Part shown: positions 6,001 through 11,478 of the stretch, in pieces | How positions within the stretch are numbered: position 1 is the first letter of the stretch | Layout of the letters: every line of letters starts with the position of its first letter | Source of the DNA: a virus | Taxonomy: Duplodnaviria; Heunggongvirae; Uroviricota; Caudoviricetes | Reading direction: 5' to 3' (one strand) | Length of the DNA stretch: 41,592 bases | Virus record (IMG/VR): IMGVR_UViG_2874968258_000006 | Made by a program: the position numbers

Positions 6001-9000
6001 GTCGCTTATGCATAGAACTGGTCGCAAGTGGTGATGTATATAATTCTGGCTACGGCTTATTCCCGTCTGAACAGGCTCGCAAGGACTGGCAAAGCGCCCG
6101 CAAAAAACTCTCGAGAGTAAAGGTGAGGAAACCGGTTGTTGTTGATCCGGACCTTATCTGGTCATTACCTGACGGAGAAATACGCCGCTACGACAGGCGC
6201 CTGAATATAATCTGTCGCGAGTGCCGGAAGAGCGAAGCTATGCAGCGTGTACTGGCTTTCTATCAGGGTAATTTTCAGGAGGCGATACTGTGAATGAAAT
6301 TAGCTATCAGGCTTCAATTACCGCTGGCATTCGCATCAAAGGAGAGGAGCATGGAAATAAAACCAGAAGATGAGTTAAGCAATATCGTTTTATTTCCGGT
6401 AAAAGAGGATGACCCTCGTAATCAGGTTAATTTTCTTTATGAGCCATCGGAAAGACCATATTGCCATCACGCCTCTGTATGAGGTGTACTGGCAATAGCG
6501 GACACTACCATTTGTTCTTTTTTTAAGCAGCCATCTGATGATATTTTTCCCTGAAGGCTGCCGGGGAGATATTCCCCAGACGAGAGTGACGACGCTGACG
6601 ATTGTAGAAAATCTCAATGTATTCCCGTATTACTGAGATGGCTTCATCCCGGTTATTAAAACGATAGTGGCTCAGGCTCTCATTTTTCAGCGTTCCCCAG
6701 AAGCTTTCCATCGGAGCGTTGTCGTAACAGTTACCTTTACGCGACATTGATGTTTTCAGACCAGACTGCTCCTGTATGACCCGGTAATCGTATGCGCAGT
6801 ACTGTGAACCTCGATCAGAGTGGTGGATTAGCCCGGCAGGTGGGCGCTGGCTCCTGAGCGCCATAAACAGGGCTTTACCTGTCAGCTCTTTTGTCATGCG
6901 CTCTCCCATGGCGTAGCCGACAATTTCGCACGTATAAACATCTTTGATGCCAGCGAGGTACAACCATCCCTCCTGTGTGGCAACATACGTCAGGTCCGCC
7001 ACCCAGACCTGATTTGGTGCTGTAGGAGCGAACGTCTGGTTCAGCAGATTTGGCGCAACTGGCAGATTGTGGTTCGAGTTCGTAGTCGCTCTGAACTTGC
7101 GTTTCTGCTTACAGCGTAGCCTTAGCTCCTTACGAAGACGTGCCAGTCGGTCACGACCAACGATGATGCCATTCTCTGCCAGCTCCGTCTGGAGCCGCCG
7201 GGTTCCATATGTTTCGCGAGTGCGGATATGTGCCACCTTAATCTCCAGTTTTAGCCGCTCATCACTTTGTTTTCTGTCTGAGGGTTCATGCTGTACCCAG
7301 TTGTAATAACCGCTCCTGGATACACCAAATACCTGACACATCGCTTCAATGGGAAATTGTTGTCGCCATTGTTCGATTAACGCGTATTTTTCAGCGACTC
7401 CTGTGCAAAATACGCTGTTGCTTTTTTTAATATATCTCGCTCAAGGCGAGCTTCATTTAACGCCTTACGCAGTTGCAGAATTTCAGATTCCAGTTCAGCC
7501 ACCGTGCGGGAACCAGGAGTACCGAGCCCTTTTCTGGCGGCGGTAACCCATTGTCCTAAAGTGCCTTCAGGAAGAGATAATCGGGAAGCGCCTTCACTGA
7601 TCGAAAGTTGATTTTCAAGAACCGTTCTGACAGCTTCGGCTTTGAACTCTTTAGAGTAACGTTGGGTTTTTCTGCTCATTATTAGCTCCTTCTGATGCCA
7701 TTCTATTTCAGGAAGGAGTGTCCGTTAAACTCAGGCTACCTCAGTACGGGTTGACGAAAAAGAGCGTCAGGTCCGCTGTAAAATCTGCGGTGCGGTTGTG
7801 GAGCCGTTTGACTGGATGCTCTCTGTGGCAAAAAGAGAAACCAGACTGGCAGATGATGTAAGGCTATTGCGCCAGGAGGAACAGGAAAGGCGGAGAAATA
7901 TAGAAAAGCTGATACAGATTGAGCGTAACGCGAAAGCGCGGATACGCAGGGCGACAAAATCCAGAACTGAATAATTAAATTTAGCACTGTTAAAAATTTA
8001 ATCCTTAACCGGAGGGATTTCTGCACCCTCAAATCATCAGGAGACCACCCGAAAGGGCGGGGAGCAGTCACACATCTGTTTCCGATAGCCCCGTTCTAAT
8101 GCTACACTCTTTGATATTTTTATGACCCCAATAAACATATTTATGACAGTTGCTGATTTCAAACGGCCCAAATTGGAGCTCCCAAACGGGGCAAACAAAC
8201 TACTACTGCACTCTTGCTGTGCTCCATGTTCCGGTGAGGTGATGGAGGCGCTTCAGGCCTCGGGAATCGACTACACCATCTTTTTCTACAACCCGAACAT
8301 TCATCCTCAGAAAGAGTATTTAATTCGTAAGGATGAGAATATTCGCTTTGCTGAACAACACGGCGTGCCGTTTATTGATGCTGATTACGACACAGACAAC
8401 TGGTTTGAACGAGCCAAAGGAATGGAATGGGAGCCCGAACGAGGGATCCGTTGCACCATGTGTTTTGACATGCGTTTTGAGCGGACAGCGCTGTACGCCG
8501 CTGAAAATGGTTTCAGTGTGATCAGCAGTTCACTGGGCATTTCACGCTGGAAAAATATGCAGCAGGTTAACGACTGTGGGCGGCGAGCCGTCGCGCATTA
8601 TCCGGGCATGGTGTACTGGGATTATAACTGGCGCAAGCAGGGCGGCTCGTCCCGTATGATTGAAATCAGCAAGCGCGAAAAATTCTATCAGCAGGAATAT
8701 TGTGGCTGTGTGTATTCTCTGCGCGATACCAATCTACACCGCAAATCTCAGGGACGCCCTCTTATCAAAATTGGTCAACTCCACTACGGTAAAGAAGAGA
8801 AGGAGTGATTTTATGGGGCACCTTTCTGATTGATTTCATATTGGCGAGGTAAGTAGAATGACTGCGGGTGCTTGAGGCTATCTGCTTCAGGCATGAACAC
8901 CAAAAGGCAGATAGAGAAAAGCCCCAGTTAACATTACGCGTCCGGCAAGACGCTTAACATTAATCTGAGGCCAATTTCATGCTTTGCACATGTAGGTTAG

Positions 9001-11478
9001 CCTCTTACATGCCGAAAGGCAAGGAGAAGCAGGCTATGAAGCAGCAAAAGGCGATGTTAATCGCCCTGATCGTCATCTGTTTAACCGTCATAGTGACGGC
9101 ACTGGTAACGAGGAAAGACCTCTGTGAGGTACGAATCCGAACCGGCCAGACGGAGGTCGCTGTCTTCGTAGACTACGAATCCAGGAAGTAAGAGTGACCG
9201 GGCGGGGAGCTGATCCCATCCCCGCCCACCTCTGATGTGTCAGGCATCCTCAACGCACCCGCACTTAACCCGCCCATCGCTGTGATCTCTCAGCGTTTCG
9301 GCGGGTTTTTTGTTGTTTATTTCCGGTGAATTTGATTCGCGCACCTTCGCAGATAGAATCGACTCACTTAAGTAGCGCGCAGGGAGAAGAGGGATGGACC
9401 CCGAACAGGGGAGAGCTATTTATCTGGAAGGATTCTGAAGATGAAAATCGAAGAATTGCGTGAAATTTTTAGTGAAAATGGCCTCTATGCTGTGCGCGTT
9501 GAGAATGGAGCGATTGTCAGCCATTGCCGCATTAGATGTTTGCAATCTCAACAAAGGAAGAGCGGTGCTGTGTTATTTTATTTTTGTAATGGACTTCTGA
9601 CGGACGGTTTTATTTTGCGTGAGGACGAATTTGTCACATCATTACGGGTTTTGAAAGAGATTGGTTTTAAGGCTGGTTTTCTGCTTTTGCTGAAGAATAA
9701 ACTCATCTACAATCTTGAGCAGGATTGAACTCCTGCTGTGTAACACCGTGCCACCGGAGAAAGCCGATGGCACATATACAACTGGTCAAACAAACCTCTT
9801 CCGGATTACTTCTCCCGGCGACGCCGGAGAGTTGCGATTTTCTGCATCAAATCAAAATAGGTGAGTGGATACACGCAGACTTTAAGCGTGTGTGTAACTA
9901 CGCATTCCACAAGCGTTTTTTCAAACTCCTGCAACTGGGTTTCGATTACTGGACTCCGGTCGGTGGGGCGATCACGCCTCGCGAACGAAAACTGGTGTCC
10001 GGTTTCGTTGATTACCTGTGTGAATCAGTAGGCCGGGAACATACGCCAGCTCTGAGCGAAGCCGCAGAGCAATATCTGAATACAGTTGCGACACGCAGAA
10101 CCAGTGATACGGCATTGCTAAAGTCGTTTGAGGCTTTCCGCGAGTGGGTAGCCATTCAGGCCGGATTTTACACCGAGCATTTTTATCCGGACGGTAGCCG
10201 TGGGTGTCGGGCGAAATCTATCGCGTTTGCGAATATGGACGAAACCGAGTTTCAGCAGGTTTATAAATCTGTTCTGAATGTGCTGTGGAACTGGATTCTG
10301 TTCCGTAAATTTTCCTCTCCGGAACAAGTCGAAAATGTGGCCGCGCAGCTGCTGGAGTTTGCGTAATGGTGGATTTACGTAAAGCGGCGCGGGGGCAGAT
10401 GTGCACCGTCAGAATTCCTGGCTACTGCAATCACGATCCGGAAACGTCTGTGCTGGCGCATTACCGACTGGCGGGAACGTGCGGAACAGCGATAAAGCCA
10501 CACGATATGCAGGCAGCGATTGCCTGTAGCTCGTGCCACGATTTAATCGACGGGCGGGTAAAAACCAGCGATTACACCAAAGAAGAATTACGCCTGATGC
10601 ATGCAGAAGGTGTTTTTCGCACACAAGAAATCTGGAGAAAGGAGGGATATTTATGATTTACCCAACGAATACAGGAAAAAGCGGAGAACACCTTCGTCTC
10701 ACCACGCTGGAAAGTGTCTGGATTCAGGGAAAACTACGTATGTGGGGGCGCTGGTCGTATATTGGTGGCGGTAAGACGGGGAATATGTTTAACCTGATGT
10801 TGACCTCTAAAAAGCTGACAAAAACGGCAATTAACGAGGCGCTCCGGAGGATGAAAAAAGCAGGTCTGAACAAGTCTGAACTTGAGGCTTTTTTGCGGGA
10901 TATGATTAACGGTAAGCAAAAGAGCTGGCTGGCGCATTGTACTGATGCAGAGGCGTTATGTATTGATCGGGTCATAAGTGAGGTGCTGGCAGAGCATCCA
11001 GGATTGATTAGCGTCCTTCGGCAACGGTATGAGGGGCGGGGGATGACCAAACGCAAAATGGCTGAACTGCTGAATGATGCACACCCGAAATGGAGTTTAA
11101 GAACCTGTGAAAGACGCATTGAGCATTGGCTAAAGGTGGCAGAATTTATTTTGTACAAACCAATGGTTATGGCTTTTGGTATAGAGAAAAAAGTTATTGC
11201 TTTTTGACGTAAAAACTGCTTCAATTCTTGTACGCTTCGCAAAGCTGTACCGCGAGGCGAATAGCAGACATGGACATTTGAAAGAGCCCGCTTTATGCGG
11301 GTTTTTTTATACCTGAAAAACGGCACAGGACGTTAAACGTGCTGGTGGTCAGATGAGTTTGCAGATGTGATGACATATGGTTATTATTCTGCCTCCGGCC
11401 CTTTAGCTCAGTTGGTCAGAGCGAGCGACTCATAATCGCCAGGTCGCTGGTTCAAGTCCAGCAAGGGTGAAGTAGTCA

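What the first reader, a model, noticed from the sequence alone, without database searches (positions are those of the whole stretch)
8979..9440. hok-type type I toxin locus beside the QueH-like gene
A 51-aa Hok homologue is followed by a GC-rich hairpin and T-run, and the upstream 230 bp has room for the antisense Sok RNA and mok leader. It may stabilise the prophage remnant. Whether the antisense partner is intact is not visible by eye.
Basis: partly seen in the sequence, partly recalled or inferred. Interest (0 to 1): 0.35.

Follow-up and report, generated by a model that had tools for sequence, protein, structure and literature searches.

The report
Intact hok/sok toxin–antitoxin cassette
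This is an ordinary, apparently complete copy of the well-known hok/sok killer-gene cassette (small membrane toxin plus antisense RNA antidote) in an IS-riddled lambdoid prophage, about 91% identical to the experimentally characterised hokW-sokW of Shiga-toxin phages.

Summary
Window 9036-9191 (+) encodes a 51-aa Hok/Gef toxin (Pfam PF01848, E=4e-23), one residue different from HokW of phage 933W. Every canonical RNA element is present:
- hok promoter
- 5' tac element (8866-8877), pairing with a 3' fbi element (9248-9260)
- anti-SD box (ucb) covering the mok Shine-Dalgarno
- in-frame 70-codon mok ORF (8979-9191)
- 3' protective hairpin
- strong terminator with T-run (9267-9311)

The antisense partner looks intact. 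The Sok homologue maps to 8987→8917 (-). It folds as a free 5' tail plus a terminator-like hairpin. Its promoter hexamers (TTGCCT-17-TAACCT) are identical to those of sokW, whose -10 was shown by mutation to be needed for antitoxin activity.

Rfam RF01794 matches full length at 117 bits (cutoff 59). The DNA is 100% identical to loci annotated hokD in two RefSeq E. coli genomes.

Lineage-specific oddities:
- a 10-bp deletion in the hok promoter spacer
- a ~23-nt insertion in the terminator loop
- a distinctive Sok-target loop

Verdict: already known, low interest. The biological role (prophage stabilisation, lysis assistance or phage exclusion) remains inferred.

The parts
8830..8859 (+). hok/mok mRNA promoter: TTGATT (8830-8835), 18-nt spacer, TAGAAT (8854-8859)
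   Evidence: Promoter scan gives 9/12 matches. A -10 hexamer (TAGAAT, TATAAT or TACAAT) sits at a fixed 6-7 nt from GGGTGC across about 35 related loci. The -35 is new in this lineage: a 10-bp deletion relative to the closest relatives (TTGGCG-17-TAGAAT) brings TTGATT into register.
8866..9311 (+). Predicted full-length hok mRNA (~445 nt), from the tac 5' end to the terminator T-run
   Evidence: The 5' end is inferred from the Rfam model start and the -10 spacing. The MFE is -188.5 kcal/mol, z=-8.9 against 100 shuffles. On 34 homologues the structure is 88% paired, against 36-42% for slid controls, and 34 pairs carry compensatory changes.
8866..8877 (+). tac (translational activator element), GGGUGCUUGAGG
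   Evidence: Pairs with 9248-9260 in the MFE fold (12 bp, one bulge). Invariant in 18 hokD/W-type loci. Covaries with fbi across the family.
8868..8894 (+). Metastable 5' hairpin (tac paired with the segment immediately downstream)
   Evidence: -16.9 kcal/mol, z=-4.5. It is the MFE of nascent-length transcripts. The element is described for R1 hok in PMC9841398.
8921..8927 (+). ucb / anti-SD box (GCCCCAG)
   Evidence: Pairs with the mok SD region 8965-8971 in the full-length fold. Can alternatively pair with tac 8866-8873 (forced fold -141.6 against an MFE of -143.2 to -146.2 kcal/mol).
8917..8987 (-). Sok-type antisense RNA gene (71 nt), homologue of sokW
   Evidence: Coordinates transferred from the sokW annotation in AF125520 through alignment A1. 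Folds as a 15-nt free 5' tail plus a long hairpin followed by CUUUU, -28.6 kcal/mol, z=-4.7.
8994..9022 (-). Sok promoter: -35 TTGCCT (9022-9017), 17-nt spacer, -10 TAACCT (8999-8994)
   Evidence: Hexamers are identical in 933W sokW and in 9 of 9 aligned relatives. The sokW 'pro-less' mutagenic primer YO-421 changes exactly this -10 and abolishes antitoxin activity (PMC8621323). Weak by consensus (4/6 and 3/6), so the generic scan does not call it.
8967..9004 (+). Sok-target hairpin: mok SD GAGG (8967-8970), mok AUG (8979-8981), loop CUUUGCA (8982-8988), dcb GCCUC (9000-9004)
   Evidence: -12.4 kcal/mol. An equivalent hairpin folds in 21 of 21 related loci, and 18 of 21 have a YUNR motif in the loop, here UUUG.
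8979..9191 (+). mok ORF, 70 codons, in frame with hok and ending at the same stop
   Evidence: ORF list. Same architecture as annotated mokC/hokC and mokW/hokW, which share their stop coordinate, and as the IncFII plasmid copy.
9036..9191 (+). hok toxin CDS, 51 aa; SD AAGGAG at 9021-9026
   Evidence: Pfam HOK_GEF, E=4.3e-23. 98% identical to HokW, 78% to HokC, 45% to the R1-type Hok.
9200..9227 (+). 3' UTR hairpin GGGCGGGGA/UCCCCGCCC; predicted 3' end protector of the processed, active mRNA
   Evidence: -20.9 kcal/mol, z=-2.9. Relatives keep a hairpin here with a different sequence and length. Its role is inferred from R1 hok, where mutations in the last stem-loop of the truncated mRNA abolish function (PMC9841398).
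9248..9260 (+). fbi (fold-back inhibition element), CCUCAACGCACCC
   Evidence: Pairs with tac. The only variable column in 18 hokD/W-type loci is the bulged C9254.
9267..9312 (+). Intrinsic terminator: stem AACCCGCC/GGCGGGUU with an inner hairpin, then TTTTTTG
   Evidence: -22.8 kcal/mol, z=-5.5. Relatives have the simple form ACCCGC-TTCG-GCGGGT-TTTTTG, whereas this copy has a ~23-nt insertion in the loop.

Best explanation
Window ~8830-9312 is a complete hok/sok-family type I toxin-antitoxin cassette of the hokD/hokW subtype. It sits in the nin region (QueH - hok - rem-like - DUF1367 - YbcO - Q-like) of an IS-disrupted lambdoid prophage.

Proposed mechanism. Sequence and fold features are shown here. 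The dynamics are inferred from plasmid R1 hok/sok and Sp5 hokW-sokW.
1. A ~445-nt hok mRNA starts near G8866 and ends at the 9267-9311 terminator.
2. While being made, its 5' tac element is held in a metastable hairpin.
3. In the finished RNA, tac pairs with fbi 380 nt downstream, the ucb box covers the mok Shine-Dalgarno, and the mok AUG is also paired. The RNA is therefore neither translated nor recognised by Sok.
4. Slow 3' trimming back to the 9200-9227 hairpin removes fbi. [quoted passage not shown]
5. The 71-nt Sok RNA is made from the opposite strand (8987→8917) from TTGCCT-17-TAACCT. It pairs through its free 5' tail with that loop and the mok start. This blocks mok translation, and hence the coupled hok translation, and marks the duplex for RNase III.
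6. If Sok synthesis stops (loss of the element, or prophage induction), the short-lived Sok disappears. The stored mRNA is then translated, and the 51-aa Hok inserts in the inner membrane and kills or lyses the cell.
For: - Toxin: Pfam HOK_GEF, E=4e-23; 50 of 51 residues identical to HokW.
- Leader: Rfam RF01794 full-length match at 117 bits, equal to K-12 hokC (118) and 933W hokW (113.5).
- Similarity: 91% DNA identity to hokW-sokW over 85% of the 501-nt query (window 8843-9270). hokW-sokW was shown experimentally to be a type I TA that depends partly on RNase III and Hfq (PMC8621323).
- Sok: promoter hexamers are identical to sokW and to 9 of 9 relatives. Sok folds with a free 5' tail plus a terminator hairpin, z=-4.7.
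- Full-length fold: shows tac-fbi (12 bp), ucb on the mok SD, and a paired mok AUG; z=-8.9.
- tac/fbi covariation: GGUGC with GCACC in 29 of 31 loci, and GGCGC with GCGCC in 12 of 13.
- Whole structure on 34 homologues: 88% paired against about 40% for slid controls, with 34 compensated pairs against 11-19.
- Other hairpins: the metastable 5' hairpin and the target hairpin are both predicted.
- Annotation: identical DNA is annotated hokD in two RefSeq genomes.
Against: - No expression data exist for this copy.
- The hok promoter has lost its ancestral -35 through a 10-bp deletion and now relies on TTGATT with a non-optimal 18-nt spacer.
- The Sok -10 (TAACCT) is weak by consensus and the generic scan does not detect it.
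- Thermodynamic folding of the truncated mRNA does not by itself choose the tac/ucb 'open' form: it lies 1.6-4.6 kcal/mol above the MFE, depending on the 3' end used.
- A9009 (G in 8 of 9 relatives) lies in the Sok promoter spacer next to dcb.
- The NCBIfam Hok models score below their curated cutoffs (55 against 73).
- The host element is heavily IS-damaged, a setting in which silent decay is common.
Confidence: 0.85

Rival explanations
1. The cassette is structurally intact but functionally silent or weakened. It would be a decaying copy, as several K-12 chromosomal hok loci are reported to be. The 10-bp deletion would have crippled the hok promoter, so little or no toxin mRNA is made.
For: - A lineage-specific 10-bp deletion lies between the ancestral -35 (TTGGCG) and the -10. 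It is seen only in the window, L001, L012 and L013.
- The surrounding prophage is cut by at least three IS elements.
- K-12-type relBE-hokD copies show that hokD loci can lose their entire leader and still persist.
Against: - The deletion places another TTG-type hexamer (TTGATT) 18 nt from an unchanged TAGAAT. This scores 9/12, no worse than the ancestral arrangement.
- Both ORFs, all RNA pairing elements and the Sok promoter are intact.
- The same allele is found in E. coli and in Shigella flexneri genomes.
Confidence: 0.12
2. Role, option A: post-segregational killing or addiction, which stabilises the (defective) prophage against excision or deletion.
For: This is the paradigm function of plasmid R1 hok/sok (established knowledge; summarised in PMC9841398). 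The cassette lies inside a mobile element, and the 933W GenBank record annotates hokW with 'prophage maintenance'.
Against: Deleting hokW-sokW did not change growth under normal conditions, and the effects the paper measured concerned induction. Most E. coli genomes carry 2 to 10 related copies, which may cross-protect. Nothing in the sequence distinguishes this role from the others.
Confidence: 0.3
3. Role, option B: lysis helper at prophage induction. Sok disappears after DNA damage, Hok is made ahead of holin and endolysin, and phage release is accelerated, as shown for hokW-sokW.
For: In Sp5, mitomycin C removes sokW RNA in a RecA-dependent way. HokW appears about 1 h before the endolysin, and phage yield halves without the locus (PMC8621323). 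The window copy is 91% identical, with the same Sok promoter.
Against: This prophage is interrupted by IS elements and has lost part of its tRNA cluster, so productive induction is doubtful. The cassette sits in the nin region, not where hokW sits in 933W, so its transcriptional context differs.
Confidence: 0.35
4. Role, option C: abortive-infection defence. Host transcription shut-off by an infecting lytic phage depletes Sok and triggers Hok.
For: Phage exclusion has been reported for R1 hok/sok (own knowledge, not checked here). A labile antitoxin is compatible with this logic.
Against: PADLOC was not queried, and no defence genes were noted next to the locus.
Confidence: 0.15

Closest known systems
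hokW-sokW (with mokW) of Stx2 phages 933W / Sakai prophage Sp5
   Same: - DNA is 91% identical across the region from the promoter -10 to fbi.
- Hok is identical at 50 of 51 residues.
- mok is 70 codons and in frame.
- Sok length and position are the same.
- The Sok -35 and -10 hexamers, tac, ucb, hok SD and fbi are all identical.
- hokW-sokW has been shown experimentally to be a type I TA.
   Different: - The genomic position differs: here the nin region between QueH and a rem-like gene, in 933W near the right end among different neighbours.
- The promoter upstream of the -10 differs, including the 10-bp deletion.
- The Sok 5' tail and target loop differ (CUUUGCA here, CUGAACA in hokW).
- The 3' hairpin sequence differs.
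- This copy has its own terminator after fbi, where 933W diverges.
- Hok has R50 in place of E50.
hokD (relF) of the E. coli K-12 Qin prophage
   Same: - This is the name PGAP gives to this very sequence.
- The Hok protein is 90% identical.
- The same downstream neighbour is present: the rem-like ORF is 68% identical.
   Different: K-12-type loci have relB-relE immediately upstream and no hok leader, mok or sok (no Rfam hit in L018, L019 or L024). The window copy has the full regulatory apparatus.
hokC (gef)/mokC/sokC of E. coli K-12
   Same: Same tac sequence, in-frame mok, Rfam score of 118 against 117, and 78% Hok identity.
   Different: hokC lacks the 18-nt extension of the Sok/target stem that all hokD/W-type loci carry. 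K-12 hokC is followed by IS186 and has lost its fbi.
hok/sok (parB) of plasmid R1 and IncF plasmids
   Same: Same set of elements and the same predicted folding logic: tac/fbi, ucb/SD, dcb, Sok promoter inside the 5' part of mok, and a 3' hairpin.
   Different: - Hok identity is only 45%.
- tac and fbi carry the compensated variant GGCGC/GCGCC.
- The leader is longer.
- It is plasmid-borne, with a demonstrated post-segregational killing role.

Membership tests
hok/sok type I toxin-antitoxin family | Small (about 50 aa) Hok/Gef membrane toxin | tested here: met
   Pfam PF01848 scores 81.1 bits against a cutoff of 22 and covers profile positions 1-42 of 42. The conserved TRKxLCE core and the C-terminal YES motif are present.
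hok/sok type I toxin-antitoxin family | Overlapping mok reading frame with its own SD, upstream of hok | tested here: met
   A 70-codon ORF runs 8979-9191, with GAGG 8 nt upstream of its ATG. The architecture matches annotated mokC and mokW.
hok/sok type I toxin-antitoxin family | Cis-encoded antisense Sok RNA gene overlapping the mok start, with its own promoter, a free 5' tail and a terminator hairpin | tested here: met
   Sok maps to 8987→8917 by homology to the annotated sokW. Its promoter hexamers are identical to the mutationally validated sokW promoter. Actual transcription was not testable.
hok/sok type I toxin-antitoxin family | Long-range tac (5' end) - fbi (3' end) pairing that locks the full-length mRNA | tested here: met
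   A 12-bp helix joins 8866-8877 and 9248-9260 in the MFE fold. It is 98% paired over 34 homologues, with a U-A/C-G compensated pair. The tac and fbi types match in 41 of 44 unique loci.
hok/sok type I toxin-antitoxin family | [quoted passage not shown] | tested here: met
   8965-8971 pairs with 8921-8927 in the MFE fold. This helix is 91.5% paired across homologues, with 5 compensated pairs (helix 5).
hok/sok type I toxin-antitoxin family | Refolding of the 3'-truncated mRNA into a tac/ucb stem plus a mok-SD/dcb target hairpin | tested here: inconclusive
   The alternative fold is feasible (-141.6 kcal/mol, and it forms the SD/dcb hairpin). The MFE of the truncated RNA (-143.2 to -146.2, depending on the 3' end) instead keeps the metastable hairpin and the ucb/SD pairing. 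The target hairpin itself folds in 21 of 21 relatives.
hok/sok type I toxin-antitoxin family | Metastable 5' hairpin that prevents co-transcriptional translation | tested here: met
   8868-8894, -16.9 kcal/mol, z=-4.5. This is a prediction only.
hok/sok type I toxin-antitoxin family | Match to the curated RNA family for the hok leader / Sok target (Rfam RF01794) | tested here: met
   117 bits against a gathering score of 59, model positions 1-157 of 157. The model lies on the hok-sense strand.
hok/sok type I toxin-antitoxin family | Toxicity of Hok, neutralisation by Sok, RNase III cleavage and 3' processing | not testable with these tools
   Demonstrated only for homologues: hokW-sokW (PMC8621323) and R1 hok (PMC9841398).
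K-12-type hokD (relF) locus | hokD directly downstream of relBE, with no leader, mok or sok | tested here: not met
   The window has QueH upstream and a complete leader. K-12-type loci L018, L019 and L024 have relB/relE ORFs and no RF01794 hit. The PGAP name 'hokD' therefore describes the toxin subtype, not this locus architecture.

The most novel reading that the evidence does not exclude
The 16-nt segment that forms the Sok 5' tail and its target loop (8972-8987) may be a rapidly diversifying 'address'. It would keep the many hok/sok cassettes co-resident in one Escherichia or Shigella genome (2-10 per genome) from cross-neutralising each other.

Among 18 hokD/W-type loci it varies at 13 of 16 columns. 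The adjacent Sok stem-loop varies at 5 of 56, and tac at 0 of 12. Even so, the target hairpin and a YUNR loop motif are retained.

On this reading, the window's allele (loop CUUUGCA) would be a private specificity. The promoter deletion and terminator-loop insertion would be further lineage-specific tuning.
Probability: 0.3. Interest if true: 0.35.

Novelty: already known. Interest (0 to 1): 0.1.

Why it matters
It matters little beyond correct annotation.

- It shows that this IS-damaged Shigella-like prophage still carries a complete, probably active killer cassette. By contrast, the K-12 'hokD' reference locus that supplies its name is a leaderless remnant.
- Anyone deleting or curing this prophage should expect possible Hok-mediated killing.
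- The Rfam 'sok' hit should be read as the hok leader on the sense strand, not as the antisense RNA.
- The small lineage-specific changes (promoter deletion, terminator-loop insertion, divergent Sok address) are natural variants. They could be used to probe promoter strength, 3' processing and Sok specificity in a well-understood system.

Tried and rejected
- The generic terminator scan found nothing in 8700-9500. This is a limit of the tool (loop of 8 nt or less), not absence: direct folding shows a strong terminator.
- The generic promoter scan does not call the Sok promoter. I relied instead on hexamer identity with the validated sokW promoter.
- I had recalled that R1 mok is out of frame with hok. 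The IncFII copy, whose Hok is identical to my recalled R1 Hok sequence, has mok in frame, as do mokC and mokW. I dropped that supposed difference.
- I first took GCCUCUUAC (8999-9008) for the ucb. Reading PMC9841398 showed it is the dcb and that the ucb is the GCCCC box upstream.
- Folding of the truncated mRNA did not reproduce the 'open' conformation as the MFE, so that step stays inferred.
- The NCBIfam Hok models hit below their cutoffs, which was uninformative.
- The 3' hairpin (helix 16) appears poorly paired only because the window's 5-nt insertion puts the alignment out of register. It folds well in isolation.
- No second hok locus exists in the window.

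
Full report
**What is there**

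The window encodes a 51-aa protein at 9036-9191 (+): MKQQKAMLIALIVICLTVIVTALVTRKDLCEVRIRTGQTEVAVFVDYESRK. It matches Pfam HOK_GEF over the whole profile (81.1 bits, E=4.3e-23). A 70-codon ORF starting at 8979 runs in the same frame to the same stop. This is the arrangement annotated for mokC/hokC in K-12 and mokW/hokW in phage 933W, and it also holds for an IncFII plasmid copy. The upstream gene (8122-8808) is QueH (E=1.9e-65). The downstream genes are a rem-like ORF, DUF1367, YbcO/DUF1364 and a DUF1133/Q-like protein. This is the nin region of a lambdoid prophage.

**RNA elements**

- Leader. Rfam RF01794 ('sok') matches 8866-9041 on the + strand, end to end (117 bits, gathering score 59, E=2e-27). 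It is the only such locus in the window. The score equals those of K-12 hokC (118.3), 933W hokW (113.5) and an R1-type plasmid hok (87.2).
- A caution on the Rfam hit. In K-12 it lies on the hokC strand, opposite to the annotated sokC. The model therefore describes the hok leader that contains the Sok target, not the antisense RNA itself.
- hok promoter. TAGAAT (8854-8859) lies 6 nt upstream of GGGTGCTTGAGG. An equivalent -10 (TAGAAT, TATAAT or TACAAT) keeps this spacing in about 35 related loci.
- Full-length fold. Folding 8866-9306 gives -188.5 kcal/mol (z=-8.9). In it, 8866-8877 (tac) pairs with 9248-9260 (fbi) as 12 bp with one bulge. The mok SD region (8965-8971) pairs with GCCCCAG (8921-8927, the ucb). 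The mok AUG is also paired.
- Nascent transcripts fold tac into a local hairpin (8868-8894, -16.9 kcal/mol, z=-4.5).
- After the stop codon come a 9-bp GC hairpin (9200-9227), then fbi, then a terminator (9267-9307, -22.8 kcal/mol, z=-5.5) with TTTTTTG.
- These are the elements described for R1 hok mRNA: tac/fbi, ucb/anti-SD, dcb, a metastable hairpin and a 3' stem-loop that protects the processed RNA (PMC9841398).

**The antisense partner**

Phage 933W annotates sokW. Through alignment A1 it maps to window 8987→8917 on the minus strand. This 71-nt RNA folds with 15 unpaired 5' nucleotides and a long hairpin followed by CUUUU (-28.6 kcal/mol, z=-4.7).

Its promoter is TTGCCT (9022-9017), a 17-nt spacer, and TAACCT (8999-8994). 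Both hexamers are identical in hokW and invariant in 9 of 9 aligned relatives. In the hokW-sokW study, the 'pro-less' mutation, introduced with primer YO-421, changes exactly this -10. It abolishes protection, which sokW supplied in trans partly restores (PMC8621323).

The only difference inside the promoter is A9009 (G in 8 of 9 relatives), which lies in the spacer.

**Comparative support**

I collected 79 loci encoding Hok relatives from GTDB species representatives, plus phage, plasmid and E. coli copies.

| Test | Result |
|---|---|
| tac/fbi type match, 44 unique loci with a recognisable tac | GGUGC with GCACC in 29 of 31; GGCGC with GCGCC in 12 of 13 |
| Independent switch | Two loci with hokD-like proteins (Photorhabdus, Pantoea) carry the GGCGC/GCGCC variant, so the switch is not confined to one clade |
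| Window MFE structure projected on 34 homologues | 88.2% of cells paired, against 35.5-42.3% when partners are slid |
| Compensated pairs | 34, against 11-19 in slid controls |
| tac/fbi helix | 98% paired |

One bias applies to the slid controls: the structure was derived from one of the aligned sequences, which favours it over them.

**Relationship to known loci**

- DNA of 8780-9440 is 100% identical to two RefSeq E. coli chromosomes (FDAARGOS_943 and 944), where PGAP calls the CDS hokD.
- Related sequence occurs in 4713 of 5426 complete E. coli genomes, with a median of 2 and up to 10 places per genome.
- The best characterised relative is hokW-sokW of 933W/Sp5, at 91% identity. It has been shown to be a type I TA that partly depends on RNase III and Hfq. 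After mitomycin C, sokW disappears in a RecA-dependent manner, HokW is made before the endolysin, and phage yield halves without the locus.
- The K-12 locus that gives the name hokD (relF) is different. It follows relBE and has no leader (no RF01794 hit in three such loci). It does share the downstream rem gene, at 68% identity.
- The window copy is therefore the complete form of what K-12 retains as a remnant.

**Peculiarities of this copy**

1. A 10-bp deletion between the ancestral -35 (TTGGCG) and the -10 is shared only with L001, L012 and L013 (E. coli FDAARGOS_944, E. coli ECMA0423 and S. flexneri SFBU1023). It brings TTGATT (8830-8835) to 18 nt from TAGAAT.
2. There is a ~23-nt insertion in the terminator loop, and the 3' hairpin is longer and re-sequenced.
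3. The Sok 5' tail and target-loop region is distinctive. Among 18 hokD/W-type loci, 13 of 16 columns in 8972-8987 vary. This compares with 5 of 56 in the Sok stem-loop, 0 of 12 in tac and 1 of 13 in fbi. The target hairpin still folds in 21 of 21 loci, and 18 of 21 keep a YUNR motif in the loop.
4. Hok has R50 instead of E50.

**Context**

The prophage is colinear with the FDAARGOS_944 prophage at 98-99.8% identity. It is interrupted by IS3-family elements at 6480-7743 and 11468-12716 and by IS2 at 13462-14794. The IS load and the identical Hok in S. flexneri suggest a Shigella-type genome; this is an inference. The cassette itself is untouched: the nearest IS ends are 1.1 kb upstream and 2.2 kb downstream.

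**Mechanism and confidence**

That this is a complete hok/sok cassette working by the canonical antisense and mRNA-refolding mechanism is very likely (0.85). The uncertain points are:
- actual promoter activity after the deletion;
- the refolding step, because the truncated-RNA MFE does not select the open form;
- the biological role.

'Stabilising the prophage remnant' is plausible but untested. The nearest experimental evidence points to a lysis-assisting role on induction, which may be moot in an IS-damaged prophage.

**Verdict**

The feature is already known and already annotated elsewhere, so interest is low.

Noticed in passing
window 8866-9041 (+); L002 502-654: The Rfam family RF01794, named 'sok antitoxin', matches the hok-sense strand. 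In K-12 the hit lies on the hokC strand, opposite to the annotated sokC. An automatic annotation from this hit would put the antitoxin on the wrong strand and make it about 2.5 times too long.
   Followed up: yes
window 8972-8987: The Sok 5' tail, mok start and target loop form a variation hotspot among 18 hokD/W-type loci: 13 of 16 columns vary, against 5 of 56 in the adjacent Sok stem-loop. The target hairpin and a YUNR loop motif are nevertheless retained. This may reflect diversification of antisense specificity among co-resident copies.
   Followed up: partly
window 8836-8853 (relative to L004 2520-2556): A 10-bp deletion in the hok promoter spacer is shared only by the window, FDAARGOS_944, E. 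coli ECMA0423 and S. flexneri SFBU1023. It replaces the ancestral -35 TTGGCG (17-nt spacer) with TTGATT (18-nt spacer).
   Followed up: partly
window 9275-9297: There is a ~23-nt insertion, forming its own small hairpin (CGCUG...CAGCG), inside the loop of the hok terminator. Relatives have a simple ACCCGC-TTCG-GCGGGT terminator.
   Followed up: no
window 9332-9359 and 9441-9728: A promoter-like site, TTGATT-16-TAGAAT, lies upstream of a 95-aa ORF. That ORF is 68% identical to the Rem-like ORF that follows K-12-type hokD. The hokD-rem adjacency is thus conserved, although the upstream neighbour differs (QueH here, relBE in K-12).
   Followed up: partly
window 8122-8808: An epoxyqueuosine reductase QueH gene (Pfam E=1.9e-65) sits in the nin region of a lambdoid prophage. 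It is a queuosine-pathway enzyme carried by a phage, with no other queuosine genes seen next to it.
   Followed up: no
window 11397-11470 and 11468-12716: An IS3-family element abuts or clips the 3' end of a tRNA with a CAT anticodon (annotated tRNA-Ile in the intact relative). It also replaces the tRNA-Arg, tRNA-Thr and tRNA-Gly genes that follow in the FDAARGOS_944 prophage.
   Followed up: partly
window 1-2033, 6480-7743, 11468-12716, 13462-14794, 22544-23318, 25904-26676, 30821-32069, 35549-36812: The window has a dense IS load: several near-identical IS3-family copies, an IS2, and an inverted pair of IS1-like copies. This fragments the prophage and its neighbourhood, which is typical of Shigella-type genomes.
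   Followed up: partly
window 33761-33849 (-) and 28938-29008 (+): Two Rfam hits exceed their gathering scores: sRNA-Xcc1 (68.3 bits) and naRNA4/CssrE (63.2 bits). Neither was examined.
   Followed up: no
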